64,000 bases of DNA from Octopus vulgaris (lineage: Eukaryota): positions 10,912,001-10,976,000 of the forward strand of contig OX597815.1 in NCBI GenBank assembly GCA_951406725.2. Direction: 5' to 3'. Positions 7,807 to 64,000 of this stretch are shown here, piece after piece. Each line of letters begins with the position of its first letter. The first letter of the stretch is position 1. The position numbers were made by a program, and so were the translations under genes. The notes beneath the pieces were generated by a model. That model was given only the letters and a program-made list of their open reading frames with translations. It did no database searches and was not told the origin of the DNA.

Positions 7807-8014
7807 TATGCGGTGTATGCACCCTATTAGTACAGCTATCATAGTGCGTATGTGTGTGCATACGTGTGTGTGTGCGTGCGTGTGTACGTGAGTGTGTGTG
7901 TATTTTAATACTTATATGCACGTATATATGCTTCGGTGGATGTGCTTCTGTGTCTGTGTTCGTATTCTTTCTGTGATTCCTTTGTAACCATTTTTACTCC
8001 ATTTAGAAGTTTAC

Positions 8015-11000
8015 GGTCAAAATTAGAAAATTTTCTAAAAATTTTTGGTGAAAATTTTCGAAACATTTCTGGGTAAAATTTTTGGTCGAAAATTTCGAAA
8101 AACTTTTGGGTAAAATTTTCGAAAATTTTTAGATAAAATTTTCGATGGAAATTTTCGAAAAATTTTGGGGGAAAATTTTCGGTGAAAATTTTCGAAAAAT
8201 TTTTGGGGAAAATTTTCATTGAAAATTTTCGAAAAACTTTTGGGTAAAATTTTCGGTGAAAAAATTTTGGGAGAAAATTTTCGAAATATTTTTGGGGAAA
8301 ATTTTCGGAAAATTTTTGGGTTAAATTTTTGGTGAAAATTTTCGAAAAATTTTGGGAGAAAATTTTCGATGGAAATTTTCAAAAATTTTTGGGAAAATTT
8401 TCAGAAAATTTTTGGGGAAAATATTCGGTGAAAATTTTCGAAAAATTTTTGGAGAAAATTTTCGAAAAATTTTTGGTGAAAATTTTTGGTGAAAATTTTT
8501 GAAATATTTCTGGGTAAAATTTTCGGTCGAAATTTTCGAAAAACTTTTGGGTAAAATTTTCGAAAAATTTTTGAAAATTTTCGTTGGTAACTTTCGAAAA
8601 ATTTTTTGTGAAAATTTTCGAAACATTTCTGGGTGAAAATCTTCTATGAAAATTTTCGAAAAATTTCTGGGAAAAATTTTCGGTGAAAATTTTCGAAAAA
8701 TTTTGTGGAAAATTTTCGAAAAATTTTGTGGGAAAATTTTCGAAAAATTTTTGGTAAAAATTTTCAGTGAATATTTTCGGTAAATTTTCGGTTAAAATTT
8801 TTTGGTAAAATTTTCGAAACATTTTTGGGGAAAATTTTCAGTGCAAATTTTCGAAAAATTTTTGGGTAAAATTTTCCGTGAAAATTTTCAGAAAATTTTT
8901 GGGGAAAATTTTCGGGGAAAATTTTCGAAAAATTTTTGGAGAAAATTTTTCTAAAAATTTTTTGTGAAAATTTTCGAAACATTTCTGGGTAAAATTTTCG
9001 GTCGAAAATTTCGAAAAACTTTTGGGTAAAATTTTCGGTGAAAAAATTTTGGGAGAAAATTTTCATTGAAAATTTTCGAAATATTTTTGGGGAAAATTTT
9101 CGAAAAATTTTTGGGTAAAATTTTCGGGGAAAATTTTCGAAAAATATTTGTGGAAAATTTTCATTGAAAATTTTCGAAAAAGTTGTGAGTAAAATTTTCG
9201 GTGAAAATTTTCAGAAAATTTTGGGTAAAATTTTCGGTGAAAATTTTCGAAAAATATTTGGAGAAAATTTTCGAAACATTTCTGGGTAAAACATTTTTGG
9301 ATAAAATATTCGATGGAAATTTTCGAAAAATTTTTGGGTAAAATTTTCGGGAACTTTTTGGGCAAAAGTTTCAGTGAAAATTTTCGAAAAATTTTGGGGA
9401 AAATTTTCAGTGGGGAAAATTTTCAGTGAAAATTTTCGAAAAATTTTTGGGTAAAATTTTCGGGAAATTTTTGGGCAAAAGTTTCAGTGAAAATTTTCGA
9501 AAAATTTTGGGGAAAATTTTCAGTGAAAATTTTCGAAAAATTTTTGGGTAAAATTTTCGGTGAAAATTTTCGAAAAATTTTTGGGTAAAATTTTCAGTGA
9601 AAATTTTCAGAAAATTTTGGGTAAAATTTTCGATGGAAATTTTCGAAAAATTTTTGGGTAAAATTTTCGGTGAAAATTTTCGAAAAATTTTTGGGGAAAA
9701 TTTTCATTGAAAATTTTCGAAAAACTGTTGGGTAAAATTTTCGGTGAAAAAATTTTCGAAATATTTTTGTGGAAAATTTTCGAAAAATTTTTGGGTTAAA
9801 TTTTTGGTGAAAATTTTCGAAAAATTTTGGGTGAAAATTTTCGATGGAAATTTTCAAAAAATTTTTGGGAAAATTTTCAGAAAATTTTTGGGGAAAATAT
9901 TCGGTGAAAATTTTCGAAAAATTTTTGGAGAAAATTTTCGAAAAATTTTTGGTGAAAATTTTCGAAATATTTCTGGGTAAAATTTTCGGTCGAAATTTTT
10001 GAAAAACTTTTGGGTAAAATTTTCGAAAAATTTTTGGATAAAATTTTCGTTGGTAACTTTCGAAAAATTTTCGGTGAAAATTTTCGAAATATTTTGGGGG
10101 AAAATTTTTAGTGAAAATTTTCGAAAAATTTTTGGATAAAATTTTCGAAAAATTTTTGGTTAAAATTTTCAGTGAAAATTTTCGAAAAATTTATGTGTAA
10201 AATTTTCGGTGAAAATTTTCAGAAAATTTTAGGGGGAAAACTTTCGGTAAATTTTCGGTTAGAATTTTTGGGTAAAATTTTCGGTCGAAAATTTCGAAAA
10301 CTTTTGGGTAAAATTTTCGGTGAAAAAATTTCCCGTGAAAATTTTCAGAAAATTTTCCTTGAAAATTTTCAGAAAATTTTCTTGAAATATTTTCAGTGAA
10401 AATTTTCGAAAAATTTTTAGGTAAAATTTTCGGGGAAAATTTTCGAAAAATTTTTGGGGAAAATTTTCATTGAAAATTTTCGAAAAACTTTTGGGTAAAA
10501 TTTTCGGTGAAAAAATTTTGGGAGAAAATTTTCATTGAAAATTTTCGAAATATTTTTGGGGAAAATCTTCGAAAAATTTTTGGGTTAAATTTTTGGTGAA
10601 AATTTTCGAAAAATTTTGGGAGAAAATTTTCGATGGAAATTTTCAAAAATTTTTGGGAAAATTTTCAGAAAATTTTTGGGGAAAATATTCGGTGAAAATT
10701 TTCGAAAAATTTTTGGAGAAAATTTTCGAAAAATTTTTGGTGAAAATTTTTGGTGAAAATTTTCGAAATATTTCTGGGTAAAATTTTCGGTCGAAATTTT
10801 CGAAATACTTTTGGGTAAAATTTTCGAAAAATTTTTGGATAAAATTTTCGTTGGTAACTTTCGAAAAATTTTTGGTGAAAATTTTCGAAACATTTCTGGG
10901 TAAAATCTTCTATGAAAATTTTCGAAAAATTTCTGGGAAAAATTTTCGGTGAAAATTTTCGAAAAATTTTGTGGAAAATTTTCGAAAAATTTTGTGGGAA

Positions 11001-11985
11001 AATTTTCAGTGAAAATTTTCAAAAAATTTTTGGGGAAAATTTTCGAAAAATTTTTGGTAAAAATTTTCAGTGAAAATTTTCGAAAAATTTTTGTGGAAAA
11101 CTTTCGAAAAATTTTTGGGTAAAATTTTCGGTGAAAATTTTCAGAAAATTTTAGGGGAAAATTTTCGGTAAATTTTCGGTTAAAACTTTTGGGTAAAATT
11201 TTCGAAACATTTTTGGGGAAAATTTTCAGAAAATTTTTGGGGAAAATTTTCGGTGAAAATTTTCGAAAAATTTTTGGAGAAAATTTTCTAAAAATTTTTT
11301 GTGAAAATTTTCGAAACATTTCTGGGTAAAATTTTCGGTCGAAAATTTCGAAAAACTTTTGGGTAAAATTTTCGGTGAAAAAATTTTGGGAGAAAATTTT
11401 CATTGAAAATTTTCAGTGAAAATTTTCGAAATACTTATGGGGAAAATTTTCGAAAAATTTTTGGGTAAAATTTTCGGGGAAAATTTTCGAAAAATATTTG
11501 GGGAAAATTTTCATTGAAAATTTTCGAAAAAGTTGTGGGTAAAATTTTCAGAAAATTTTGGGTAAAATTTTCGGTGAAAATTTTCGAAAAATATTTGGAG
11601 AAAATTTTCGAAACATTTCTGGGTAAAACATTTTTGGATAAAATATTCGATGGAAATTTTCGAAAAATTTTTGGGGAAAATTTTCGAAAAATTTTTGGGT
11701 AAAATTTTCGGGAAATTTTTGGGTAAAATTTTCAGTGAAAATTTTCGAAAAATTTTGGGGAAAATTTTCAGTGAAAATTTTCGAAAAATGTTTGGGTAAA
11801 ATTTTCGGTGAAAATTTTCAGAAAATTTTGTGTAAAATTTTCGATGGAAATTTTCGAAAAATTTTTGGGTAAAATTTTCGGTGAAAATTTTCGAAAAATT
11901 TTTGGGGAAAATTTTCGGGAAATTTTCGGGTAAAATTTTTGGTGAAAATCTTCGAAACATTTTTGGGGAAAATTTTCAGGCAAAA
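8015..11985. repeat. ~4 kb satellite of GAAAATTTTC-type units with higher-order duplication
   Basis: A4-5T4-5 tracts separated by CG, CGGTG, GGG and GGGT spacers; rare variants recur about 2.3 kb apart. Confidence 0.95.
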
Positions 11986-12249
11986 TTATATATCTTAGTA
12001 ATTCGTGTATAACTCCAAACTACCAGAAGAAGGACCTAGTAGTGTTCTATTAGGTACAAGAGTGTTTTGATATTCTGTTAGTTATTATCTAGGTTAGAGG
12101 CGTTAAATGTGAAATGAAGAAGAGAATGAGAATCTTCAAAGAAAAGATAAAAAGATATGGAGATACCGTGGTTTTACTAATTTAATTAAGTAAGCTCATA
12201 TAATGTCTAAACTATATGTTATGTGAATCAAAAGTAAAACTTGAATGAC

Positions 12250-13260
12250 TTAAAAATTTGTGGACACACGTAGGGAAGGCTTCATGCTGCTTGTTTAATA
12301 ATTGTTCAAGGTTATGTGGCAAGATTTGTGAGGATTCCCTCAAACAAGCAACAGGGGTATGCTGGCCTTGATATGGAGGACCTGAATCAATATGTTGTGT
12401 GGTATATTCTTTTTCCTAAGTTAGTGTATCTTCTCTGCGAGAGAAGTATACTGTTTATCACATCTAAAAGAGTTTAAATCTGCAGAGTATCTTCGCTTAG
12501 AATTAACAATAGCACCTTTATAACTCTTGATAGAGTTTTGAAGTTTGTTAAGGACCGTACACTTGTAGACCACATTAAACCTCCTGCAGTGAGCTTGCAG
12601 TGGGCATTTATTCCCAACTTTGAAGTTGCAATGGGATCTATTTGGTTTATGAGTTTTTCCGCTATGTGAATTGGAGAATGCAAGATTAGAAGGTGCACCA
12701 TGGTTTAAAGCAGTTCCTGCTAATCCACTCTCAGCGTATTCGTTGTTTTCGATGTCATTTGTACTGTTATCGTAGGGATTGGTGAATGAAAGCATAGATA
12801 TTTCTGACTCTAGGGAAAGACTAAGAGCTGCATTATTCTCTTGGTTTGTAGCAGAAACACTACTATTGTAATTGGTACTAATATTGTTGTTGTTGTTGTT
12901 GTTGTTGCTGTTGTTATTTTAGTTGTTAATACTAATACTGTTAGTGTTATCACTAGTGTTATTATTACTGATACTATCGCTATAATTACGACAGTTATTA
13001 GCGTTAGTAATAGCACCACTGTCAATAGGATTCTCGTTTATGTTAGTATTGTGATTGTTATTATCGTTTCTATTATTAGGATTAGCAATAATATCATAAT
13101 TATGGCTATTGTTGTAATTATTATCATCATTATTGGCCATTGAGCTAAGGAGAAAGGGTTATTGCTATCATCATTTAAATTTTGTTTGTCATGATCAGCT
13201 TACTTGGATAACTTAGATGACAGAAGTGGTTCCCGGCGAATATATAATGAAAGAATATAA
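12250..13260 (-). mobile_element. Penelope-like C-terminal Cys-motif/GIY-YIG remnant preceded by an Asn-rich linker
   Basis: CNFKVGNKCPLQAHCRRFNVVYKCTV...SYKG...TSLAEKIH, then LLNKQHEAFPTCVH (matches the LNKRxExxxxCxH terminal motif). ORF 12919-13140 (Asn-rich) is in the same frame. Confidence 0.72.
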
Positions 13261-13450
13261 TAATCGGTTCGATCCGCGCTAAGTAGCCGAAGCCCTGGGG
13301 TTTAACTACTGGGGCTAATTTCCCAGCGAATTAGTTATATAATTTATTAAACATGTGGTATATGATTCTGTAAATATATATTTATTCATAACCCATGATG
13401 TTTTGGTATTGCAGTTGATTGCAGTTGTAAAAATATGTGAGCTATGTGCG

Positions 13451-13503
<53 letters not shown>

Positions 13504-14061
13504 GTGTGTGTGTGTGTGTGTGTGTGTTTGCGTGAGCTTATTGTTTAGCTTGAAGGAGAAAATATAAACATTGAGGGGGTTACACAGGAGTTACAAACAG
13601 TTTAGTTCTGAAATGGGGCGGGGATTACGGAAAGTATTTAGTACGAGACATTGTTATGACGGTAGGTGCAAAGTTAAGTCAAAAGTGGGGGGTTTATAGT
13701 GTTTATGTAGTTGTACCGTACGGTGCTGTCAAAGGATGCTGAATTGCCGATGTTCCCTACATGATATTCTTGAGGTCACGGCTATTTTGAGGGTGTGTGT
13801 ATGTTTATCGAGTGGGATGTGTTTAATAAGCGTGTGGGCGAGTCCTGTGTGCAGATCTTAAGGAAGGCGTGAAAGATGTCATCTTCATTGCAACGTGTTT
13901 GAAGCTGAAAGCGAGTAGGTACTCCAATGTACGTAAACAAAAGAATGTGAAAGAAATGAAGAGACTCGAGTTGAAAGTGACGCTTGGAAAGACCACTGTC
14001 AACACATGCTGACCGAAAGTTTGTAATTAGAGCTAAGTTAGCTTTCTATCAGGACAAAATT

Positions 14062-14478
14062 GGGATCTTTTCGGTTTGAACGGCAGTTTTTAACATAATT
14101 TCTAGGTAACTAAAAAATTTTAAACTTCGTATACTGGTAGAATGTGATAATAAAACATCTTTTTGTCTTGGCTTTATTGAGAAAATTCTATAGTTTGTAA
14201 GATATTTGTTGTTTTTTTCTTCAATTTCTGCAATTTCAACCAATCACTGACGTCTATTGAGGTGAAAATATTCTGTGCCATGTGAATATGTCCCTCGTTT
14301 AAGAAACAGATTGGGTTTATTTACATTTGTGAAGAAAAAAATATATCCTTCCACCACCCCTAACCCTAACCCTAAATGAGATTGAAATGCAATAGATCGA
14401 TTCTAGGGTCATAATTATGGGTGACAATTTCATATGACAACGCTAGAAAAAAACTGCCGTTCAAATCGAAAAGATCCC
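14062..14478. mobile_element. MITE with ~30 bp TIRs, 6 bp TSD AAAATT and internal (CCCTAA)3
   Basis: GGGATCTTTTCGGTTTGAACGGCAGTTTTT ... AAAAACTGCCGTTCAAATCGAAAAGATCCC; AAAATT at 14056-14061 and 14479-14484. Confidence 0.85.
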
Positions 14479-14609
14479 AAAATTGCCAGGTGATTATTTA
14501 AACAAATAATACCCTCAGTTTAGAAATAAATATTCCGAGTTCGAATTTCATCTTTTACTGTATACGTATGTAACGAAGATGAGGTGAGTGAGAAAGATGT
14601 ATGTGGAAA

Positions 14610-14830
14610 TCTCTATATATATAAACGGCAAAATGTCTGCGTGTGTGTCCTTTATACAAATCCACAATTTTTCAGTTAGAGGGCTCGCACTTTCTTTGGT
14701 CATTCAAAACTATCCAAGGGTGGTCGTGCACATCTTTACATTTCCCCAGTCACCCCGCAAAAATCAATAGAAGTGACTTTTTTGTGAATTTTCTATCCAA
14801 AGCCCAATAAAAATGCTCGAAACTTGATAC
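14610..14830 (+). mobile_element. Helitron-like 5' end; 3' end not resolved
   Basis: A|TCTCTATATATATAAACGGCAAAATGTCTGCGTGTGTGTC resembles the other Helitron starts. Confidence 0.45.
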
Positions 14831-15468
14831 ATTACAGGTTATTACAAACATGTATGAGAGAACTTCATGGTTAGACTGGACTGTTGATGCTGTAGACATG
14901 GTTGACCTACTGTTGGTGGTGTGTAGAGGTAGCTGTTGGTCTGTGTGGTCTTCATACAGCAATGATGTAGACAGGCGTCTGGTGGAGATGAAAGTGGAGT
15001 CTGGCTGGTGTCAGAACATCGTTGCTGGAGACGAGTTGCGTGTGTGGTCAGTGACGCATGCCAAAAACCTAGAACAGTCGAGAAACACCGTACTTATGGG
15101 GAATGGTAGGCTCCCAGAAGCTGGTGAAAGATTTCCCGCGTAAGGAAAAATAAACTGCTGCGCCAACACGATTAGACGGCTGAAAACTGACCAATACAAA
15201 CAACCGGTTCGTCTACTGACGAGGTCATGTGACAGCTGGAGTGAAAAGGCCTTGTGGGGCCGATATTGGGGTATTTAAGTCTAGATGTGTCAAGCTGAAA
15301 ACATTTCACACAATTACAGTGTAAATCACTTCTGCTACGCATATCCAGGAAGGGGAGTGCTGACAATCGGAGATCAAATCCATCGAAACATTGAGTCGAT
15401 AAAAATATTTTATAAATGTTCACCATTAATCTTAAAGATACTACTGGGAATTTTTAAAAGTCTATCAA

Positions 15469-15510
<42 letters not shown>

Positions 15511-15562
15511 TATCATTATTGTTATTATTATTAGTAGTAGTGTTGTTGTTGTTGTTGTTGTT

Positions 15563-16126
15563 ATTGAGTGAGAGAGCAGTGCATACCATTAAAGTGACAC
15601 TGGGGTAAAATATACGAAGCCCAGTATACCCACCATGACTACCATTCTGATAAGGGTACACTAGGCACATGCATTACAACCATATGTGCGCGATATGGTG
15701 ATCTCATATCAAGATTAACAGCGCATGACCTTGTAAGTGGGACCCAGTTAGAATTTTTTTCAAGTTGAGTAGTCCAACCCGATCAAAAGGGCCCTGAATA
15801 AGGGTTGTTTAAGGATGATGAACGAAACGCTCATGTTTCCAAAGGTGAATTATCCAAACCTCAAAGAATCCCTCTCAATACATGGCTATGATGCTCTCCC
15901 TTCTATTTCTGCTTGTGATCAGAGATGCATATATCGTCAGCCACTATAGGGACATGCTCAACTGGTTATGGTCAAGTAACTGACAAGCAAATCTGTGGTA
16001 TTGAGCAGAATATTTGCTGTAGCCCATCTTTTATACCAAGACAAAACAATGTACATGATAACACTTCCAGTCAGTTAAGATTAGAAGCCAAGGCATAGCC
16101 ACTGTCAGGTACTGCATCAGGGCATT
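15563..16126 (-). mobile_element. Family D copy, longest in the window
   Basis: Reverse complement of 61794-62338, extending 5' to ATGCCCTGATGCAGTAC; its tail runs into (CAA/TAA/TGA)n. Confidence 0.78.
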
Positions 16127-16790
16127 TGGGGCCGATCTGCCCAAGATGCGGTCAGAGCGACGAAACCGTTCTACACGCACTCGTGCAGTGTGCAACCATT
16201 TCTGACCTGTGGGCTTATGTCGAACGACTGCTGTCACGTGTGGGACGAGTGGGTTTATCAGATGAGTCTATCATCAATATCGTCACGCCTCCTTCCTTAA
16301 AACGGGAAAGAAGAGCTATTTTCATCATACTTGTGGCTATGGCGAAAGAATGTATTTGGTGGACGCGTCTGAAAGGATTAGAGACAAACACTTTCCTTTC
16401 TGGTCAATCTCTCATCAACTTCTTCAAGTATCACTTGACAAGGAAAGTGAGAGTCTTTAAAGCAGAGAGTTACTTACTTGCAAATAAATGTGTTAACATG
16501 TGACATTATTGACCGAGGTTACCGTGGTCTTTTCCGTAGGCTTTTCTTTCCACGGATAAACCTTATCTGTTTCCCCCTTTACACTTTACATCATGACATT
16601 TCTGTGATACACGATCCCAATTGATCGTTTTTTTAAAAACTTTTTTCTTTCTTTTTACGATCCCTTTTGATCGAAAACCTACCCCGTTTTTTTTCTTTTC
16701 TCCCCAAAAAGAAAAGCTCTACTTTGTAATTTGTCCCGTCTGTGTTCAGCCCTGTGTGGCTAATAAAGAAACATATTATTATTATTAATT
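16126..16790 (+). mobile_element. L1/Tx1-like LINE 3' end (CCHC zinc knuckle, 3' UTR, (TTA)n tail)
   Basis: CPRCGQSDETVLHALVQC...LW...AKECIWWTR is the typical L1/Tx1 ORF2 C-terminus, followed by a T-rich UTR, AATAAA and attattatt. Confidence 0.75.
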
Positions 16791-16879
16791 ATAATAAGTA
16801 TCACTGAAACCCTGGGGTCGATGTAATCGACTAGTCCCCCTCCCCCAAATTTCAGGCCTTGTGCCTATAGTAGAACCCT

Positions 16880-17460
16880 ATGTGCCGTTGCAACCCAAGG
16901 ATAACGTTAAAAGACCATAATGATAATTTCTATGCAGACCCTAAAGTCCAGCTGATATGCCCATGTAAGTCGGACCTAGGGAAATTAAGTAAATTAATAT
17001 TAGACAAATATATAAATAAATTAAATAATTTAGATCACCTACAATTATGGGGTAGTATAATGGAAACTTTACAATGGTTTAGAAATATTAAAAACAGTAA
17101 GGAATATAAGTTTATACAAATAGATATTGATAATTATTATGCATCGATAAATGAGATAGTGTTGAATAAGGACTTGATGTATGCCAAAAATAGAATATGA
17201 ATGACGATGGAGGAAATTAAGGTAGTCCAAATGGCAAGGAAATCACTCATTAAATACAAAAATGAATTATGGGCTAGAAAGGAAACACGGGAGTATTTTG
17301 ATGTACATATGGGAACGCCAGATTCAGCACAGGTAACCGTCCTAGTTGGGATCTATTAACTTTCCGAATTAGAATTAGAAAATTTAAATATAGAAGGGGG
17401 CTTATATAGAAATGATTTGCTATTGATAACAAAAAATTGTATGAAAAGAACTCTAGAAAA
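16880..17460 (+). mobile_element. Penelope-like RT fragment (possibly Naiad-type), degenerate
   Basis: ITLKDHNDNF..PKVQLICPCKSDLGKLSK..FIQIDIDNYYASI, then after a frameshift [18 protein letters not shown] and GGLYRNDLL (YRDD-type catalytic motif). Truncated by (TA)n. Confidence 0.8.
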
Positions 17461-17463
17461 TTT

Positions 17464-19780
<2,317 letters not shown>

Positions 19781-20244
19781 AGCGCGCGTACATATAATCA
19801 CGTACAGCAAATGATAAATGACAATTAGGCAGAGGAGCCCATCGACCATAAAACCGGAATAACCATTTATCCCTCCTCCAGGACACAACTCTACAAATGT
19901 GATATTACAGAACAGAGACAATTTTCTCAGACGCAGTTGGCAGCTGACTTAGCCAGAGGCAGTAAAAGAGCTTCGTACCGAACAACAGACATGTTCTTGC
20001 CATTTTAACAGAGCAAATAAATTGAGATTTATTCTTGAGGGAGTTTTTATGTTTTGTTTTGGTTTGGTTTTTTTTTTTGTTTTTTTTTCCCTTTAAAAAT
20101 AAAAGTCAAATTATTAAGTTTTTTTTTTAGTTTGTTAAGATAGTTAAACTTTTTTTTACTTTCTGAGTTTCCAAGATCAATAAGTTTGCTTTTTTTTCTT
20201 TGTTTGTTTGTTTAGAAGTTTATTCAGACGTAACTGGTATAGTA

Positions 20245-20786
20245 CCACCACCTCCACCACCACCACCACCACCATCATCATCATCATATGATAACCATCA
20301 GTAGATATATCTTCAAATCATCATCATCATCATCCTCATCATCAAACTCCTCCTCCTCATCATCATCATACACCTCCTCCTCCTCCTCCTCCTTATCATC
20401 ATCATCTTCATCGTCATCTTCATTATCTTCCTCCTCCTCCTCCTCCTCATCATCATCATACACCTCCTCACCCTCCTCCTCCTCATCATCATCTTCATCG
20501 TCATCTTCATTATCTTTCTCATCATCATCATCATCATCATCAACACACTCCTCCTCCTCATCATCATCATCTTCCTCACACTCCACTTCCCCTTCCTCCT
20601 CCTCCTCCTCCTCTTCTTCCTTCTCCACTTCCTCCTCCTCATCCTACTCATCCTCATCATCTTCATCGTCATCTTTCTTATCTTCATCATCTTCATCATC
20701 ATCATCATCAAGACACTCCTCCTCCTCCACCTCCTCTTCTTCCTCCACCGCTTCTTCCTCCTCCTCCTCCTCCTCCTCATCATCAT
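20245..20786. repeat. (TCA)/(TCC) compound trinucleotide tract with repeated sub-blocks
   Basis: TCTTCATCGTCATCTT recurs three times; ACACCTCC/ACACTCC blocks recur. Confidence 0.9.
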
Positions 20787-20943
20787 TTTGGCATTTCAAA
20801 CTGCTAGAATTAGCAAACAAATCTCCCTCAAATCCCTTTTTTTTAAATGGGAAGGACACAACATTCGACAATATTCTTTCTTCTTCGTTAAGTTGTCGCA
20901 AACGATTCTCTTTTTCACACTCAAAGTCCATTAGGAATTTATC
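20644..20943 (-). CDS. Candidate exon: unique peptide followed by an Asp/Glu-rich tract
   Basis: ttttatatcag| then DKFLMDFECEKENRLRQLNEEERILSNVVSFPFKKKGFEGDLFANSSSLKCQND and poly-E/D to TAG; phase 0. No homology recognised. Confidence 0.25.
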   Translation of the reverse strand, partial: DKFLMDFECEKENRLRQLNEEERILSNVVSFPFKKKGFEGDLFANSSSLKCQNDDEEEEEEEEEAVEEEEEVEEEECLDDDDDEDDEDKKDDDEDDEDE

Positions 20944-21377
20944 CTGATATAAAATGTCACTGATAAAACCGTATGCTTTGTTTGCGGATTTTGGACTTAC
21001 TCAAAATGTCGGAGAGGATCGCCATCCAAGAAACCAAAGCGGGCCGAAAAGCACCAGTGACTGACAATATTGTCAGCGAATTCTATTTTTAACATAGAAA
21101 GTCACCTTGAAGAAGTTTCTCATAAAGTATAATAATGAAATTATTATTAGTGGCACATGACATTAATTGTTATTTCGTGGTCAGGAGTTGATCCCCCAAT
21201 TGGTGATTAACACTACGGATTTTTTACAGAGAAAGTAGTTTTCGGTCAGCTATACGTTCAGCTCTAAAATACAATGCAATGGCTGTGGAGGATAGGAACT
21301 TTTTTCTTTTCGCTGCTTTCATGGATTCCTATAACTCTCTATCGCCATCCAATTTTTTTAATTATGAACATGAAAGA

Positions 21378-39810: not shown

Positions 39811-39998
39811 CGTACGATACACATACGACAATTCTAAAAAACTAATGTATGTTCTTTTATTACATACATGTGGTTGTTATGTGTATGTATATATTGTTGT
39901 ATTTCGGGACGGTCATTTTGTTTTTGCCAAATAAACACACGCTCTGTATATTTGTTCTTCACTCGTTTATTACTATTTTTATTCTAATTCTTGTCCGT

Positions 39999-40043
39999 TG
40001 TCCGGAAATCTTTCGTCACACATCTGTGACCTCTTCAGCGACA
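39999..40043 (-). ncRNA. Minimal type I hammerhead in the PLE 3' pseudo-LTR (C3-G8 core)
   Basis: Minus strand reads TGTCG CTGAAGA G GTCACA-gatg-TGTGAC GAAA GATT TC CGGACA, downstream of a PLE ORF on the same strand. Confidence 0.8.
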
Positions 40044-41796
40044 CTTTTCGCCTTCGTGTATGCTCTTGCTCCACTTATTTCATTCTGTTCTTCTATGGTG
40101 TATATCCTTATGTGCGCATGCGTTTGCGTGTGTGTTTGTGTGTGCGTGTGTGTTTGTGTATGTATATGCATGTGTGTGTGTGCATGCTTGTGTGTGTGTG
40201 TGTAATTGTTCTTAGTAGCAGTATGACCTTTCCCTCAGTTCCATCCTCTTGGTACAGTTCCTGTATCCCTCTGTGTTTGTGTGTTCACCCTCGGCGCTGT
40301 CATCGTGGTAGTAGTTGTTGTTATTGCCATCGTTGTCACGCCGCTGCCGCTGTCGTTGTCAGTCGTGTTGTTGATACTGTTGCGGTCATCTGTGAAATTA
40401 CTGTGTGTGCGTGTGCGCGCGCGCGCGCGTGTATATGGGTTCGCTTCTTATGTTGTTTGTATCCATGACCTTTATATAAATGTATTTATTTATTTTTATT
40501 TATCTCTCTCTATTTCTTATATGTATCACAGGTATGTACATATATGTCTATTGTGTGTGTATTACCCTCTTTGTGTTTTATTTATTATTGTTATTTTCCC
40601 CTCTCTCTTCTGCTCCCTTTTGTCTTTAGTCATGTGGTGTGGTGATTGGGGTTATTGTTCCATTAGTATTTTCTATCGAGGCTCGCTCTATCTACTGCTA
40701 TGTGTGTAGCCTCTGTGATCTGCCTAAGTGCCGTGTCACTTCTATGCGTCGATAATACTTTACTATCTATGCTATTAATCGGGCCTCCATGTTCTGCTTG
40801 AGCGTGTTGGTAGAGCACTGACAAGCCTTTCTTTTCGTGGAGCTCTCGCCAGTATTCACCTATACTCTCCCCTGTGCTGCGTGCAGTCTCTCCAATGTAA
40901 GTGGTTGTCATGTTTCTGCATCATCCCTCAGTACATCGTAAGCTATACACGATATTCCTAACCTTACAGTTAACCCATGGGTTCATAATACATACAACAC
41001 AATTGTTCTCCGATCAGGGATTTTATAGGAGCGCCAGGCCTTTCTACTACCTTAATCCATAGATTAGTCTTAATGTTTTCCTAATAATGTATGCTAGTTT
41101 GCCGCCAGGGATAGCATCAACGAACATGACACTCTGGTCTTTTTTGTAGTCATACCAAGAGTTGACCGTATCTATCTTATTTCTGGTCCTTTCTGTGCTG
41201 TTCTATGATTCACTCCTGTACAGCGGGCAGATCCGTTTAGCATCACTCTCTATGATAGCTTTGTACTTAGTCCTGGCTCCTTTGTATACTCTAATCCTGT
41301 ACTTTTGGTTGTAGCCAGAGAACTGCATGCGGTGGATGAAGTGTTGTGTCTTTCCAATTTCATAGGGTCGCACATGCCAGACACATTCCTCATCGCTCTC
41401 ACCAAGTCAGTTATAAGAATGTTGAACTTGGCGTTGTCCGCAATAGCTGTGTTTTTGTGAACAAGGTATTTAAAGGCCGTGGGTTTGGCATAATGAGAGT
41501 GAAGGATCTGGACCTTACCGTTCTTCGTTTCTAGCCAGAGTACTGAGTCTAAAACGGGTAATCTATAGTCTGGGTGCTTACTGGGGTAGTCTATCGTTAT
41601 TTAAATACTCAGATAGATGGAGTTAGCTATTTGCTGGATGCTCTCCGCAGTGTTAGCTTATAGATCATCAACATTGTCATGTAGGATTGCTTTGGCTACT
41701 ATGTTGATATCATCCACGTAGTAGGAGTTCATGGTTACATTCATGGAGTTCACTGCTAATTTCTCTTTGAGTCTCCTATCCGACCATACCATAAAG

Positions 41797-41841
41797 TATC
41801 GCCGAAGAGGTCACAGATGTGTGACGAAAGATTTCCGGACA
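41797..41841 (+). ncRNA. Second, inverted copy of the PLE hammerhead with a U4C core change
   Basis: TATCG CCGAAGA G GTCACA-gatg-TGTGAC GAAA GATTTC CGGACA; lies in the inverted repeat of 39891-40048. Confidence 0.7.
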
Positions 41842-42880
41842 ATGGACATGAGTTAGAATAAGAACAGTAATAAACGAGTGAAGAACAAATATATAGTGCG
41901 TGTGTTTATTTGGCAAAAAAATTACCATCCCAAAATACAATATGTTTCAACACACGAATTCACATCAGCAGTCTTGCCTCATAAATTCATATATATATAT
42001 ATATATATATATATAAATTTATGAACTTATGACTATATACATATATATATAAATTTATGAATTTATGAATATATACATATATATATAAATTTATGAATTT
42101 ATGAATATATATATATCGTTGCTGTCATGTAAACTTTACTTTTTCAGAAAACTAAAAAATAGTTTCACCATTCCAAAGCAAAACTGTTGTTCTACACTTT
42201 GCTAATTTTTTATATCTTGGCACCTGAACTAGCTGGAGATACGATGGTTTGTAGGCATGTACATGTATGTGTGTATATATGCATATATATATATTATTTA
42301 TATTATTTACACACACACACACTCACACACACACATATATATATATATATATACAACTATGTATATACATATATATACATACATATATACATACATATGC
42401 ATGTATACGTATACATCTCTATATATACATATATACACATATATATGCATACATACATATATATATATACATAATATATATGTGTATAGATAAATATGTA
42501 TGCATGTATATATGTAATGTGAGATAATAATTTCACTTGTAAGAGTTTCACCATTATTAGTTACACTATGTATATATTATATACATAGTGAAAGTATTAA
42601 TAGTGAAACTATTAAAACTGAAACTTTTATCTCACATTACAATAGAGGTGTTATTGTTTCACTTTTGACACATAATACCGAAACAGTCTAAGAAATTGCT
42701 CCGGGCTCGCATCAGACAAGAAGTTGAGATTGTTTCTAGCCCATGATACTCCATGGCCCCTAAGTGGTGTATGTGTAAAATTTGAATGAAATCGGTTGAG
42801 TATTCCTCGAGTTTTAGTGATGCACACATACAGACAGACAGAGACACACACACACTCTCTCTCAGTTATATATATATATT

Positions 42881-46144: not shown

Positions 46145-46555
46145 AGTGGCTGTGTGGTAAGTAGCTTGCTAACCAACCACATGATTCCGGGTTCAGTCCC
46201 ACTGCGTGGCATCTTGGGCAAGTGTCTTCTGCTATAGCCCCGGGCCAACCAATGCCTTGTGAGTGGATTTGGTAGACGGAAACTGAAAGAAGCCTGTCGT
46301 ATATATATATGTATATGTATATAAGTGTGTGTGTATATGTTTGTGTGTCTGTGTTTGTCCCCCTAGCATTGCTTGACAACCGATGCTGGTGTGTTTACGT
46401 CCCCGCCAATTAGCGGTACGGCAAAAGAGACCGATAGAATAAGTACTGGGCTTACAAAGAATAAGTCCCGGGGTCGATTTGCTCGACTAAAGGCGGTGCT
46501 CCAGCATGGCCGCAGTCAAATGACTGAAACAAGTAAAAGAGTAAAAGAGTAAGAG
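46141..46555 (+). mobile_element. SINE family A
   Basis: Matches family A. Confidence 0.9.
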
Positions 46556-46634
46556 TATACATATATATATGTACATAATTGAAAAAAATGGAGTCAACAA
46601 GAAGGGGTACGGTTGGACATTTATTTTTTATAAT

Positions 46635-46812
46635 CATTTACAATCGTTTCGACGCCACGCAGTTCTCCAGGTGCGCAGGTACTTGATTATGCAACTGTCT
46701 CCCTACATTATGAGATCTAGTTGTGTATAATGCTACTACTGGGTAGCACAGGGTAAATCTGAAGGTGGACGGGCTTTATACTATTATACCCTACTACGTC
46801 CTTAACAGAATA
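46635..46812 (-). ncRNA. Possible highly degenerate hammerhead with long stem II
   Basis: Minus strand TATT CTGTTAA G GACGT ... GCGTC GAAA CGATTG TA AATG; two mismatches in the CUGAUGA box. Confidence 0.25.
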
Positions 46813-47041
46813 TACCATAACTATATATTTGTGTATATGTGTGTGTGTGTGTGTGTATGTATGCGCGCGTGTGAGTATATATATGTGTTTATATATATAT
46901 TTACGGAGATGTACTTGCATACCGAGTGACTTGGTCTGAGATCGTGTGCTGGAACGAAAACAATTGCAGCGTGGAAGGTGTTTATAAGCCATTTAAGAAA
47001 CACACAAAAACCGTTAGATTCACTTCAACATTTAAATTTAA

Positions 47042-47092
47042 TTTGTCGAAATATTTTCGGCGCTTTGAGACCGCGACCTGTTCACTGACAAA
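47042..47092 (-). ncRNA. Minimal type I hammerhead-like motif with G3-C8 swapped core
   Basis: Minus strand reads TTTGTCA GTGAACA G GTCGC-ggtctcaaa-GCGCC GAAA ATAT TT CGACAAA. Stem I TTTGTC/GACAAA, palindromic stem III AATATT, core GUGAACA. Confidence 0.65.
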
Positions 47093-47116
47093 ACTTCGTG
47101 CTGCAGCACGGTTTTA

Positions 47117-47119
47117 ATG

Positions 47120-47171
<52 letters not shown>

Positions 47172-50257: not shown

Positions 50258-50935
50258 TTTGTGTTAGCGCTAGAAGCCACGTGTTAAAGCGAAAAAGAAA
50301 TTGCGATACAAACACAATGTAGAGTAAGAAGTCTTTTTAAAAGTTTTGATTGTCAATATTATAAGAAGGAAAATATAATTTTCTGAAAGTTAAAAAAAAA
50401 AAACCCAAAAAAAAAAAGAAACCCAGAAAACAACCTGGATCAAACCAAGAACAAAGTCCTCGATAATATTCGTTTGTTTCTCTTATCTGTTTTTCTCTCA
50501 CGAAATGAAAAGATGAAATAAACGATATTTTCCATTAAAAGTCGATGAAATTGGAAAATAATTGCAATGAACATGCACACGCACACGCAAACGCGCGTGC
50601 ACGCACACGCAAACGCACGTGCACGCACGCGCGCACGCACGCGCACACGCACGCATGCAGACACACATACGCCTCCCCGCCTACGAACACAATTTGTTTA
50701 AATTTCGAGTCTCCTTTTCCAGATTATCCCAACGAAATATTTAAGATAGATATGTAGATGGTGTCATATTCAAGTTTGAAGCAGTAATAATGAGGTATTA
50801 TAAAGTTCAAATTTAAGGGGATGATATTTTTTTTGTTTTGTTGTTTTTTTTGTTTTGACAAAAACATTTTCAGAAGTATTTGGTTTTTGGATTTGGTGTA
50901 CAAGATTCTTTATATGAGTTCGTGTGTTGAAGCAT

Positions 50936-51228
50936 ATTCTGTTGTGTCTGGAGAGAGTCATTTTCTTTTTGCGCCTTATAATCTAACACACTCACCGGTA
51001 AAATTTCCACTTTTTCCTTATTTTTATTGTCCTAAAATTTTCGTTGCGTCTTGCAACCTATTCAATAGTCTTCCCTTTTGTTTGTTTGTACGCATAAGTG
51101 TCGGTCAGTGTGTGTGTGTGTGTGCCTATACATACATACATACATACATACATACATACATACATACATACATACATACATACATACATACATACATACA
51201 CACATGCATACATACATACATACATACA

Positions 51229-51262
<34 letters not shown>

Positions 51263-51512
51263 CATACATACATACGTACATGCATGCATGTATAGGCACA
51301 CATATACACACACTGACCCACACACATGCACACAAACAAACAAAAGAGAAAGCAGTGTAAATAACGGACAGTGTCAAGACTATTGAAAAGGTTGCAAGAC
51401 ACAACGAAAATTTTAGGAGAATAAAATTAAGAAAAAAGTGGAAATTTTACCGGTGAGTGTGTTAGATTATAAGGCACAAAAAGAAAATGACTCTCACCAG
51501 ACACAATAGAAT
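50936..51512. repeat. Fold-back element with ~190 bp arms around (CATA)n
   Basis: 50936-51072 pairs with 51376-51512; 51076-51130 pairs with 51291-51346. Confidence 0.88.
51372..51420 (+). ncRNA. Hammerhead-like motif with U3-A8 core (inverted copy at 51028-51072)
   Basis: TTGAAAA (51383-51389) G GTTGC-aagac-ACAAC GAAA ATTT TA GG. The inverted copy has a perfect stem II GTTGC/GCAAC but core TTGAATA. Stem I is weak or interrupted. Confidence 0.5.
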
Positions 51513-51769
51513 TTTCAGAAGTGTATCATTCACATTGCAGTTCGTTATTAGATGCCTAACCTCGGTAAGATAACTGTGTATATTCAATGCATGCATGACT
51601 GGAGATTCAGTTTTTGTTTTGACTAGCATTGAAAATGTGCATGCATGTGTAAGTCTGTTGTTATCCCTTCCGCAACCATTTTCTCTTTAAATTGTGGAAT
51701 GTATGCATATCAGACCGCTCGTGAGTACTACGGGTAATATGTAATCCCTTATAGGATCGTCGATGACTA

Positions 51770-54060: not shown

Positions 54061-54437
54061 CATCATCATCATCATCATCATTGTCCGACCGTGGTCGAGA
54101 CAATGGAATTTACCATGCTACGCCAGACTTCACGGTCCATCATGGCATTACGGAGGTCCTGTTGCTGGATGCCTGTATCCCTGGAGATTACATCAGGGTA
54201 GGAGAGTGTGCGCCCTCTGGTATTGCGACTAGATGGCTTCCAGAGGAGAAGAGTAGAAATTACCTCATTTTCAGCTCTACAACAATGTCCAGCAAACTGG
54301 ACTCTCTTACCTTTCACAAGAGATGACACAGGTGGTAGTTTCCCATATATTTGCATTTTGGTTGGATGACGCTTCCACGAGAGATTTTGAGCTCTCATAA
54401 GGAGGCGAGTGTAGGTTCCATCCAACCGTCTCTCAAG
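54061..54437 (-). mobile_element. RTE-type LINE 3' end with (TGA)n tail
   Basis: LDGTYTRLLMRAQNLSWK...RVQFAGHCCR...LLLW...RGR...AMMDREVWRS, stop, then TGA repeats. Confidence 0.8.
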
Positions 54438-58777: not shown

Positions 58778-59019
58778 TTAGCATAAAGAAACTTTTACCT
58801 CAGTAACCTGAACACAACTGTGTTGTCGTAAGACTCCGCAAGACGATCCGGTAAGATCCGACTGGTTCATTTTAAAGAAAGCTCTGACCAGGACGTTTTT
58901 TAAGACGGCTCGCTTAAAATGTGTAGTCATCATGGTGTAGATAAGTGGGTTAAGGGCACTGTTGATTGGTAGAATAAAAATTGCTAACCAAGCGTAGAGA
59001 TTGTCACCGATTTGGTAAC
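58778..59019 (-). CDS. Next exon of the same GPCR: TM7 and proximal C-tail
   Basis: Acceptor ctgtttccag|GT completes a Gly codon in phase with the upstream exon. Reads GYQIGDNLYAWLAIFILPINSALNPLIYTMMT (LGR TM7 motif LPINSALNPxxY). Either runs to TAA at 58778-58780 or splices at GAG|gtaaaa after 58799. Confidence 0.92.
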
Positions 59020-59171
59020 CTGGAAACAGAAAGCACCAACGTTGAGAAACAACCTGGACATTATGACAAAGAAAGTTAACGATCATAATGACGATGCGTG
59101 TGTACGTGTGTGAGTGTGTATGTGTATGTGTGTGTGAGAGGGAGTGAGAAAGAAAGAGGAAAAAGAGAAAT

Positions 59172-60105: not shown

Positions 60106-60741
60106 GTAAATAGATGTGGTGGTTTGTAGAGAGTCAGAAAATACTGAGAACGGAGTTATTTTGGGATCTCGAGGAAACAGTTTATAGCTATTCGATCAAC
60201 AGTTTGGCAGTATTATAAAAGCTGGAAGCATTCAAAGATTAGCATTTGCAGCAAGTTATGTTTTCCTCCGTAAAACAAGCATGAAGTTCAAAATATTTTA
60301 TTTGAAATAGAAATAGATATTCTCTATCCCATTTAATTTTTTGTTTAATTAAAAAAAGATTATATATTTTTTTTATCCATGATTACCAATGAAAATGAAG
60401 TGAAATAATCATAGCTGTAGATATGCAGCCGTGGAAGGAAGAATTATCTCTTGCTATTCACTTTAAATTAAAAGTAAACAAGATATTGAAATATCGTATC
60501 TTATTGTCTTAAAAAGATGAGGACAGATTGCAAAAAGTAGTCACTGATACACAAAAGAAAACGAAATACTCAAAGCGGGATGGTTTTGATCATAGGCCAA
60601 CTCGACCAGGATTGATCCGTGTCTAAACCTTTAAATATTTCTTTATCAACAACTGTACAGATGCAAAGAAAATAGCTGAAGGAGAAATTAAAAGAAATAA
60701 AACGAAGAAACACGAAAAAAAGAACTTTACGATAAACTTAC

Positions 60742-61580
60742 CTGCAAGTGCCACAGTTTTCACTGTTATTATAGGAACCCAACACATAAAGTCGGTGAGG
60801 ACGATCATGGAGAATCTCTTCATTATAAGATGATCATGATTTTCTCGATTTGTCCGCAGGGACATGGCTGACTTACGGATATTGCAAAACATGACGAAAT
60901 AGGCATAGGAAATAAATATGAAAGCTAGCACATTTATACCGAGGAATAAGAAAGCCGAGTACTCCCAGCCTTTTATGTACGGCTCATGGATATGCAAAGG
61001 TAGACACACAGCATTGTTTCGATAGAACTGTTCTCCGAAATAAGGTATGCCGAGAACTGGCAGTACAGCAAGAAAGAAATTAGCGAGCCACATGGAAAAT
61101 ATTAAAAAATATGCGGTTTTTCGTCCGCATTTGTGTAATGAAAACGGATAGACGACATTGATGTATCGATCTAAAGTAATGAGTACCACAGTAAAAACAG
61201 ACATTTCTGTGCTGATAGTCGAAATTACTCCGCAGCTGTTGCAAAGCCATGAATATCTCCATTGTTGGTCGTTCGATAAATATTGCTCACGATAATACAT
61301 ATCCTTGGAGCCGACAGTTAGTAAATAAACGCCCATCAGCATATCAGCCAACGCCAAGTTTTGGATGTAAAACGAGTGGACTTTGTTGTCTTCGTTAATG
61401 CAGAAACGCCCGAGTAAAACCAAGCAGTTTCCCAGGACACCGACGACGCCGATCACCCATACGCTAATACGTAGCACCGGGTTTTCAATGAGATTCTTTG
61501 TACTGGATAATCCATCTCCTTTGGGATTGCACACGCGTACGTGCAAAGCGTAAATACAAGTGTAGAACACAGAAAAATGT
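60742..61580 (-). CDS. Internal exon of a relaxin-receptor-like (RXFP1/2 / LGR3-type, type C LGR) GPCR: hinge plus TM1-TM6
   Basis: Translates as HFSVFYTCIYALHVRVCNPKGDGLSS...GNCLV...NLALAD...TLDRY...NAVCLPLH...FLGIN...KRFSMIVLTDFMCWVPI, closely paralleling RXFP1 motifs (YAPHVRxCxPxxDGISS, GVCFPLH, KRFFFIVFTDALCWIP). Acceptor ttattttcag| precedes 61580 and donor G|gtaagt follows 60742. 839 nt, phase 2 in, phase 1 out. Confidence 0.93.
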
Positions 61581-62904: not shown

Positions 62905-63181
62905 TAGAGGTTTGGATAATTCACCTTTGGAAACATGGGTGTTTCGTTCAACATCCTTAAACAACCCTTATTCAGGGACCTTTTGAGCGGGATGGGTTAC
63001 TCGACCAGAAGAAAATTCTAACTGGGCCCCACCTGCGAGGAGATCAACATGTCGCGCACATATGGTTGTGATGCATGTGCCTAGTGTACCCTTATCAGAC
63101 GGGTAGTGATGATGGGTATACTGGGCTTCGTATATTTTACCCCAGTGTCACTTTGATGGCATGCACTGCTCTCTCACTCAA
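62905..63181 (+). mobile_element. Family D 3' fragment
   Basis: Matches 62043-62338 with an internal deletion. Confidence 0.75.
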
Positions 63182-63199
63182 TAATAATAATAATAATAA

Positions 63200-63461
63200 T
63201 CTAAAAACAGAAACAATTCCTATCATAGTAGGTGCATTAGGCATGATAGAAAAATATTCAGACAAATACATAACAAAAACACCAGGACTTATAAACACAT
63301 ATAACATACAGAAAATTGCACTACTAGGCACTGCACACATCCTACGCAAAACACTTCCATACAATAACCATCAGAGCATCACAACAAATCACAGCACATA
63401 CCTAAGGCACACAGAGCTGCGCTCGGTAGTGAAGTGAAAGCACGCTATAAAAATAAAACTA

Positions 63462-63465
<4 letters not shown>
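63200..63465 (+). mobile_element. R4/Dong-like non-LTR element 3' end within (TAA)n
   Basis: IPIIVGALGMI...IQKIALLGTAHILRKTL is the C-terminus of restriction-like-endonuclease elements; (TAA)n on both sides. Confidence 0.75.
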
Positions 63466-63529
<64 letters not shown>

Positions 63530-63552
63530 TAATAATAATAATAATAACAATA

Positions 63553-63614
<62 letters not shown>

Positions 63615-63619
63615 TGTAA

Positions 63620-63885
63620 TAATATGAATGAACACAAGATGAAAGAAAAGTACAGGAAAGAGTATTTGAGGAGAACCTGGCTTGCGTTTCAATCGAAGTT
63701 AAATGGCCGCTATAAGATTAGGGCAATTAACACGTGGGCGGTTGCTATGATGAGATATGACGTACGAAGTGTATCTTGGAAGAAGCATGAATTACAAGTG
63801 TTAGACCAGAAAACACGTAAATTAATGACAATGAACAAGGAACTACACCATAAGAGTGATGTGTCAAGATTCTATGTAAAGAGGA
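63620..63885 (+). mobile_element. R4/Dong-like RT thumb fragment
   Basis: KEYLRR...SKLNGRYKIRAINTWAV...RY...W...LDQKTRKLMTM...HHKSDVSRFYVKR. Confidence 0.75.
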
Positions 63886-64000
63886 TAGTTCTTAATTACT
63901 GGCGATATTGATGATATAACTTGTCTTTCCGTTTCATCATTCGTTACAAACATTACATATATGGTCACGTAGTTACTTCCTCATTTCACAGAGAATATAC

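What the first reader, a model, noticed from the sequence alone, without database searches (positions are those of the whole stretch)
47042..47092. G3-C8 hammerhead variant with no adjacent ORF
Seen: 6 bp stem I (TTTGTC/GACAAA), core GUGAACA, GC-rich stem II, GAAA and palindromic AATATT. Two reciprocal changes at exactly the paired positions are unlikely from random decay. It sits in a ~200 bp non-coding segment (about 46900-47115) between microsatellites. Inference: solo pseudo-LTR or a small non-autonomous retrozyme-like element.
Basis: partly seen in the sequence, partly recalled or inferred. Interest (0 to 1): 0.7.

Follow-up and report, generated by a model that had tools for sequence, protein, structure and literature searches.

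The report
G3-C8 hammerhead in Penelope terminal repeat
This 205-base piece is a lone copy of the end repeat of a very abundant Penelope-type jumping gene, and the family carries a hammerhead RNA motif whose core base pair is reversed (G-C instead of C-G); it is predicted to cut itself only weakly and in pairs, which is untested.

Summary
The motif is real: a type I minimal hammerhead on the minus strand (47092-47042) with G3-C8, U17 and palindromic helix III; 0 of 150 shuffled windows gave a strict match. It belongs to a repeat (46901-47105) laid by 10,000-21,000 contigs in 3 of 4 runs, three organism labels. G3-C8 is the family state; this copy has two private defects in its stems. 'No adjacent ORF' is wrong: an ATG at 46992 opens 30 codons, 27 of 30 identical to the start of an Octopus protein whose relatives are RT plus GIY-YIG Penelope-like proteins. 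It is therefore a solo pseudo-LTR, with two 3' ends 57 nt apart and inversion joints. No sign of a retrozyme was found. Sister repeats in this window carry C3-G8 and U3-A8 cores. I found no natural G3-C8 hammerhead in the papers searched, but key papers were not available. Laboratory C3G/G8C mutants cut partially. Cleavage and expression are untested. The scan already noted G3-C8 Penelope hammerheads elsewhere in this genome and in another. New variant of a known kind.

The parts
46901..47105 (-). Solo pseudo-LTR of a high-copy Penelope-like element family (long form, 205 bp)
   Evidence: Loose ends pile up before 46901 (85/91/95 contigs) and behind 47105 (128/119/161) in runs X1/X4/X5; single copy in this window
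47042..47092 (-). Type I minimal hammerhead motif with G3-C8 core
47086..47092 (-). Stem I 5' arm (47086 = position 2.1, unpaired in this copy, paired in the family majority)
47079..47085 (-). Core positions 3-9 (G3 = 47085, C8 = 47080)
   Evidence: No variant at 3 in 100 or more at 47076-47105 in any of the three runs with coverage
47059..47078 (-). Extra nucleotide 9.1 (47078) and stem-loop II; 5 bp with a 9-nt loop in the family majority, bulged in this copy
   Evidence: 47060 differs in 96-97% of family depth; pair probability 1.0 against 0.67
47049..47058 (-). G12-A15.1, palindromic helix III (47055-47050) and U17 (47049); predicted cut between 47049 and 47048
   Evidence: no variant at 3 in 100 or more at 47049-47058; the cut site is inferred from hammerhead numbering
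47042..47048 (-). Stem I 3' arm; 47048 (position 1.1) is a private mismatch of this copy
   Evidence: 97-99% of family depth has the pairing letter; a 17-30% variant at 47046 keeps a U-G pair
46903..46992 (-). ATG and first 30 codons of the parent Penelope-like ORF
   Evidence: 27 of 30 residues identical to the N-terminus of P0002; P0001 found at E = 4e-4 among 1.84 billion proteins
46901..46957 (-). Optional 57-nt 3' extension ('tail') between the short 3' end (46958) and the long 3' end (46901)
   Evidence: Loose ends before 46958 in 57/49/63 contigs with TA-rich flanks; of each sister pair in the window one copy is short and one long at about this place
47106..47110 (+). 5-nt inverted copy of 47097-47101 next to the 5' end (small fold-back), followed by the AAT repeat
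   Evidence: Sequence; depth falls 70-80-fold beyond 47107

Best explanation
The segment 46901-47105 is a lone pseudo-LTR (5' leader plus the first 30 codons) of a high-copy Penelope-like retroelement family whose leader carries a minimal hammerhead with a family-wide G3-C8 core pair, predicted to cut only weakly and as a dimer, and it was likely made when reverse transcription started inside an uncut element RNA and ran off its 5' end. Shown: motif, family-wide G3-C8, the ends, the ORF start, and kinship of the ORF to RT plus GIY-YIG proteins. Inferred: (a) RT starts about 35 or 92 nt into the ORF, giving the two 3' ends; (b) 47105 is the RNA's 5' end, 57 nt upstream of the predicted cut, so the templates were uncut; (c) in full pLTR-ORF-pLTR transcripts two motifs pair through the AAUAUU palindrome, perhaps helped by the element's protein, and cut after U17, 56 nt before the ATG; (d) G3-C8 keeps the core pair that positions residue 8, and U17 avoids the G3-C17 mispair that C17 would allow; (e) this copy, solitary and with two stem defects, is probably inactive.
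For:: 21,298 / 10,362 / 15,454 contigs laid in X1, X4, X5 (organism labels A, B, C); no core variant at 3 in 100 or more; fixed ends; opposite-strand joints at 47105 and 47093; the 31-residue frame finds P0001 (Octopus bimaculoides); P0002 (O. sinensis) matches 27 of 30; P0002 is 79% identical to P0004 (O. vulgaris) over 28% of P0004; P0004's relative P0021 has weak RVT_1 (E 5.6e-4) and C-terminal GIY-YIG (E 5.7e-4) matches; 11 of 13 tested proteins hit the decayed PLE at 40.65-41.8 kb; the part downstream of the hammerhead resembles that PLE's inverted end copy (1 of 2000 shuffles) and one U3-A8 copy (0 of 2000). Layout fits the PLE consensus of PMC4209133 Fig. S3, where 24 of 56 motifs have U17 by my hand count. 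PMC11167929: C3G/G8C partly restores cleavage of a PLE hammerhead, uncut RNA is the main template, RT starts inside the ORF's 5' part. PMC3884650: G3-C8 works better with G17 than with C17 (data not shown there).
Against: No cleavage or expression data. The family-majority monomer is predicted to pair G3 with U17 (probability 0.67), an inactive-type pairing, and its palindrome can extend to 10 bp over A13, A14 and U17 (-3.8 against -0.2 kcal/mol for the 6-bp helix III); cofolding did not give the active dimer. PLE minimal hammerheads cut poorly in vitro even with C3-G8. Raw-read run X21, under the same label as X1, laid 0 of 12.9 million records. The Pfam matches are below curated cut-offs and 6 of 8 full-length relatives had no RT match. 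The downstream similarity to the other two sister copies is weak (70 and 266 of 2000 shuffles). No single DNA record with this pLTR joined to a full ORF was seen: the link runs through predicted proteins, and P0002 is a chimeric model. The 57-nt tail is longer than the 30-40 bp in the papers.
Confidence: 0.7

Rival explanations
1. Same pseudo-LTR, but the G3-C8 motif is vestigial or only structural: it no longer cuts and was amplified because transposition does not need cleavage.
For: Hammerhead mutants do not affect PAc insertion in vitro and no RNA ends were found at its cut site (PMC11167929). Predicted G3-U17 and extended-palindrome mispairing. Copies span the cut site.
Against: The only two core changes hit exactly the 3-8 pair and restore complementarity (about 1/55 x 1/3 by simple counting over 11 core positions; my estimate). 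At the CpG 47058/47059 the change that keeps a G-U pair reaches 5-8% while the change at G12 stays under 3%, whereas seven other CpG sites show both changes; one site only, and alignment effects are possible.
Confidence: 0.17
2. The 205-nt unit propagates as a non-autonomous element of its own (retrozyme-like circle or mini-PLE) using the parent's protein.
Against: It carries the ORF start and ends where PLE reverse transcription is expected to start. No strongly supported 46901-47105 head-to-tail joint among the 15 of 76 joints shown. Metazoan retrozymes have canonical hammerheads in tandem 170-400 nt units (PMC7229834 passages).
Confidence: 0.11
3. Chance hammerhead look-alike inside a SINE or other repeat.
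For: No Rfam match; folding z-score -0.77.
Against: 0 of 150 shuffled windows; family majority folds both stems at probability 1.0; same place and layout as C3-G8 and U3-A8 motifs in related repeats; ORF start of a PLE; no tRNA gene.
Confidence: 0.02

Closest known systems
Minimal type I hammerheads in pLTRs of metazoan Penelope-like elements (Cervera and de la Pena 2014, PMC4209133; read: main text parts 1-2 of 4, supplement file 2 parts 1-2 of 3)
   Same: Type I order, U-rich 5' side, extra nucleotide after A9, G10.1-C11.1, short palindromic helix III (6-nt palindrome as in Drosophila Penelope motifs), U17, mostly solitary genomic copies.
   Different: G3-C8 core: of their 56 listed motifs 53 have C3, 3 have U3, none G3 (my count; their descriptor could not have found G3). 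Extra nucleotide is G (their consensus H). Stem I of 7 bp is at the long end.
PAc Poseidon element of Anolis (Frangieh et al. 2024, PMC11167929; read: passages and part 2 of 2 of the main section)
   Same: Hammerhead in a pLTR that overlaps the ORF start; two 3' ends inside the ORF's 5' part; AT-rich targets; copies from uncut RNA.
   Different: PAc has C3-G8 (G3-C8 only as an engineered mutant); its ATG lies inside the ribozyme, here 56 nt after the cut; tail 57 nt here. The relatives here have a Cys-rich linker between RT and EN, which points to the Neptune or Nematis type (PMC8557442 passage); no tree was built.
Natural U3-A8 hammerheads (Perreault et al. 2011, PMC3088659 passage; Schistosoma Cercyon motifs in PMC4209133)
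   Same: Natural compensatory change of the 3-8 core pair.
   Different: U3-A8 is reachable through a U-G wobble; G3-C8 needs two transversions through a non-pairing intermediate.
Metazoan non-LTR retrozymes (Cervera and de la Pena 2020, PMC7229834; passages)
   Same: Short, high-copy, type I hammerhead.
   Different: Those have canonical hammerheads, tandem arrays and circular RNAs; this has a minimal motif, an ORF start and PLE-type ends.

Membership tests
PLE minimal type I hammerhead | Stem I, core 3-9, stem II, GAAA, UH in type I order | tested here: met
PLE minimal type I hammerhead | Canonical C3-G8 core letters | tested here: not met
   G3-C8 here and in the family; the Watson-Crick pair itself is kept
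PLE minimal type I hammerhead | Extra nucleotide after A9 and G10.1-C11.1 pair | tested here: met
   Family majority; the extra letter is G
PLE minimal type I hammerhead | Palindromic helix III for dimer formation | tested here: met
   47055-47050; self-duplex only -0.2 kcal/mol, and a longer competing duplex exists
PLE minimal type I hammerhead | Self-cleavage as a dimer | not testable with these tools
   Needs an in vitro assay
Penelope-like element pseudo-LTR | Belongs to an element with an RT and C-terminal GIY-YIG ORF | tested here: met
   Through predicted proteins: window to P0002 to P0004 to P0021; Pfam scores below cut-off; no single DNA record seen
Penelope-like element pseudo-LTR | Two 3' ends (optional tail) | tested here: met
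   46958 and 46901; 57 nt against 30-40 in the papers
Penelope-like element pseudo-LTR | Inverted truncated copy next to the 5' end | tested here: inconclusive
   7 of the 15 joints shown are opposite-strand joints at 47105 or 47093, one more at 47108; their orientation was not resolved; this copy has only a 5-nt fold-back
Penelope-like element pseudo-LTR | Direct repeats flanking a full ORF | not testable with these tools
   No genome held
Neptune clade of PLEs | Cys-rich linker between RT and EN and placement in an RT tree | tested here: inconclusive
   Cys-rich linker visible in relatives P0013, P0019, P0020; no named references for a tree
Metazoan non-LTR retrozyme | Canonical type I hammerhead | tested here: not met
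   Minimal PLE-type motif; no Rfam match
Metazoan non-LTR retrozyme | Head-to-tail tandem units | tested here: inconclusive
   Single copy here; 15 of 76 joints shown, none 46901-47105; one possible array joint
Metazoan non-LTR retrozyme | Abundant circular RNA | not tested
   No RNA run was laid
tRNA-derived SINE | tRNA-like head | tested here: not met
   ARAGORN 0 genes, no Rfam tRNA match; a decayed head could be missed

The most novel reading that the evidence does not exclude
G3-C8 is a working natural hammerhead core, fixed in a Penelope-like family with thousands of copies across several octopus species. With the C3-G8 and U3-A8 sister families it forms a natural covariation series showing that PLE hammerheads are selected for their catalytic fold in vivo, although cleavage is dispensable in vitro, and it marks a class of ribozyme families that CUGANGA-based searches and Rfam miss.
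Probability: 0.45. Interest if true: 0.6.

Novelty: new variant of a known kind. Interest (0 to 1): 0.42.

Why it matters
Whether the weak hammerheads of Penelope-like elements do anything in vivo is open (PMC4209133, PMC11167929, PMC8557442). A family that reversed the 3-8 pair by two transversions while keeping every other core letter, beside sister families with C-G and U-A, is comparative evidence that the catalytic fold is selected, and it gives a ready test set. It also means that hammerhead censuses built on C3-G8 or U3-A8 descriptors undercount. The element itself, a solo pseudo-LTR, is ordinary, and this copy is probably inactive.

Tried and rejected
Rfam at gathering threshold on the whole window (0 hits) and at E up to 10 on 46500-47130 (8 hits, none over the motif). 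No genome held, so no direct copy count or flank analysis. A 19-base pattern in metagenome contigs gave 16 loci, all chance matches with no hammerhead continuation; a gapped pattern in viral contigs gave 0. Raw-read run X21 laid nothing and is no test. The decayed PLE at 39.9-41.95 kb was considered as the parent and rejected: it is self-contained, has its own C3-G8 motif and inverted end copy, and its pLTR is only distantly similar. Pfam on six pieces of decayed PLE-like ORFs gave nothing useful; a homolog search with one piece found none; the Atlas gave HTH_animal clusters at 0.96 with recognition under its threshold, and nothing at 0.9 for P0001; PDB search of P0020 gave 0. The fold of the downstream 141 nt is not unusual (z = +0.82), so no RT-start stem-loop is claimed. 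An intron after codon 23, suggested by P0001, was rejected because P0002 continues through those codons. U17 as a special co-adaptation to G3 was weakened: 24 of 56 published PLE motifs have U17. Literature searches for a natural G3-C8: (laboratory mutants and natural U3-A8 only); for context. Not held and not seen: Lunse et al. 2017, Hammann et al. 2012; never opened: Przybilski and Hammann 2007, Martick and Scott 2006, Arkhipova et al. 2017, Eckert et al. 2023. Any of these, or supplement file 1 and part 3 of file 2 of PMC4209133, could hold a natural G3-C8 example.

Full report
Observation. The minus strand of 47092-47042 reads as a type I hammerhead: stem I 47092-47087 with 47047-47042, core GUGAACA (G3 = 47085, C8 = 47080), an extra G at 47078, stem II, GAAA at 47058-47055, the palindrome AAUAUU at 47055-47050 and U17 at 47049. 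In 150 block-shuffled versions of the window a relaxed descriptor that accepts any Watson-Crick 3-8 pair gave 6 hits in all, none with G3-C8 and none as strict as this one. Rfam does not see it and its folding energy is ordinary, so the case rests on the core letters and on the family.

The family. No genome is held. The run index listed 24 runs, 20 holding the stretch or part of it, 19 with half or more of its words, under four organism labels plus one small-share metagenome row. I laid 4 of the 24. Three contig sets gave 21,298, 10,362 and 15,454 contigs (labels A, B, C); the raw-read run X21 gave none of 12.9 million records, which the tool counts as no test. Summed depth is not a copy number; dividing it by the depth of single-locus contigs, with and without a 31-fold overlap correction, brackets the family at roughly 1,500 to 67,000 copies. 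This copy differs from the majority at 46934, 47048 and 47060 (96-99.6% of depth). The last two changes repair the hammerhead: the 1.1-2.1 pair forms (7-bp stem I) and stem II becomes 5 bp behind the extra nucleotide; both stems then fold at probability 1.0. No difference at 3 in 100 or more was listed at 47076-47105 or 47049-47058, so G3-C8 and U17 are the family state among contigs at least 80% alike. Other common variants in the motif are CpG decay, loop II changes, and one change that keeps a U-G pair in stem I; no double compensatory change was seen within the family.

Ends. Loose ends pile up behind 47105 (128/119/161 contigs, flanks unlike each other), before 46901 (85/91/95) and before 46958 (57/49/63), the last two with TA-rich flanks; 18 rows were shown and 749 were not. 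Seven of the 15 joints shown (61 not shown) join 47105 or 47093 to the opposite strand. Two 3' ends, an inverted piece beside the 5' end and microsatellite targets are described for PLE insertions (PMC8557442 passages; PMC11167929). No pile of ends at the predicted cut was among the rows shown.

The ORF. An ATG at 46992 opens a frame that runs to the element's 3' end. Its 31 residues found one protein among 1.84 billion, P0001 of Octopus bimaculoides (E = 4e-4). P0001 led to P0002 (O. sinensis), whose first 30 residues match 27 of 30, and to P0003/P0004 (O. vulgaris), which share the region behind it and go on into RT-type motifs (the motif reading is from my knowledge). P0004 has 67 relatives, many of 750-950 residues on 2-4 kb contigs. 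Of 8 scanned, P0021 has weak RVT_1 and C-terminal GIY-YIG matches, P0012 a weak RVT_1 match, and six have neither; 11 of 13 proteins tested have YVDD and hit the decayed element at 40.65-41.8 kb. So 46901-47105 is the leader and first 30 codons of an RT plus GIY-YIG Penelope-like element, that is a pseudo-LTR. The link is through gene models, one of them chimeric, not through one DNA record. The window is from an octopus-type genome; the species was not determined.

Sister repeats in the window. A C3-G8 motif at 40038 (-) lies behind the decayed PLE ORF, with an inverted end copy at 41793-41975; a head-to-head pair at 50880-51530 carries U3-A8 (51383 +) and a decayed U3-U8 copy (51065 -). All share the extra G, G10.1-C11.1 and a short palindrome. 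Whole-length alignments to the finding beat shuffles (0, 1, 1 and 18 of 2000); with the hammerhead left out, two of four stay significant (0 and 1 of 2000) and two do not (70 and 266). The U3-A8 copies were picked as top tiles of a window scan, which inflates their significance.

Mechanism. Shown: motif, family state, ends, ORF start. Inferred from the PAc study: the element's protein nicks AT-rich DNA and starts reverse transcription inside the RNA, here about 35 or 92 nt into the ORF; starting in the first pLTR it runs off the RNA's 5' end at 47105 and leaves a solo pLTR. As that end lies 57 nt upstream of the predicted cut, the templates were likely uncut, as for PAc. In a full transcript with two pLTRs the motifs would pair through the palindrome and cut after U17, releasing a unit or removing the leader before the ATG. 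G8C alone lowers the rate about 100,000-fold and C3G partly rescues it (PMC8495972 passage); the double mutant partly restores a PLE hammerhead. With G3, C17 would offer a trapping pair (PMC3884650 passages); the family has U17, but so do 24 of 56 published PLE motifs (hand count). Against activity: the majority monomer is predicted to pair G3 with U17 at 0.67, the palindrome can extend over catalytic adenosines, and cofolding did not return the active dimer (a nearest-neighbour model does not score the tertiary core). This solitary copy with two stem defects is probably inactive.

Novelty. Natural U3-A8 is published. Six searches aimed at the variant returned G3-C8 only as a laboratory mutant, and none of 56 motifs in PMC4209133 Fig. 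S3 has G3, though its descriptor excluded it. Lunse 2017 and Hammann 2012 were not held, and other likely sources were not opened, so 'not in print' is not established. The scan's earlier notes report G3-C8 Penelope hammerheads at four other places of this genome and in other genomes; sequence look-ups found no look-alike of this stretch, so I cannot say whether they are the same family. These notes are not counted as support.

Verdict. Real motif, ordinary carrier, unusual core: a new variant of a known kind, interest 0.42.

Noticed in passing
window 39895-41975: Decayed RT plus GIY-YIG Penelope-like element (ORF 41800-40660, minus, many stops) with a canonical C3-G8 minimal hammerhead at 40038 (-) and an inverted copy of its end at 41793-41975.
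   Followed up: partly
window 50880-51530: Head-to-head pair of related pLTR pieces around a TACA repeat, with a U3-A8 hammerhead core (51383 +; the copy at 51065 - has U8) and a short ATG frame whose start resembles that of the other families.
   Followed up: partly
P0002 (XP_029654200.2) and P0039: Octopus gene models that join this PLE family's protein to host domains (a methyltransferase; leucine-rich repeats): chimeric predictions or exonised insertions.
   Followed up: no
window 46972-47093 (table 5c): A joint from 47093 to 46972 with six letters between, at depth 1587 in X5 and 95 in X4; possibly a tandem array of a hammerhead-bearing subunit, direction unresolved.
   Followed up: no
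window 47058-47059: One-sided CpG decay: the change that keeps a G-U pair reaches 5-8%, the change at G12 stays under 3%.
   Followed up: partly
window 60623-61400 and 58778-59050 (minus): Exons of a seven-helix receptor resembling relaxin/LGR receptors (recalled resemblance, not searched).
   Followed up: no
window 16874-17200 (+), 54078-54437 (-), 63072-63911 (+), 16099-16503 (-): Fragments that look like other retroelement ORFs (PLE/Naiad-like, RTE-like and others; recalled resemblance). Pfam gave nothing for 16874-17197; the rest were not searched.
   Followed up: no
window about 7900-12000: Long AT-rich satellite of short degenerate units with strong GC skew.
   Followed up: no
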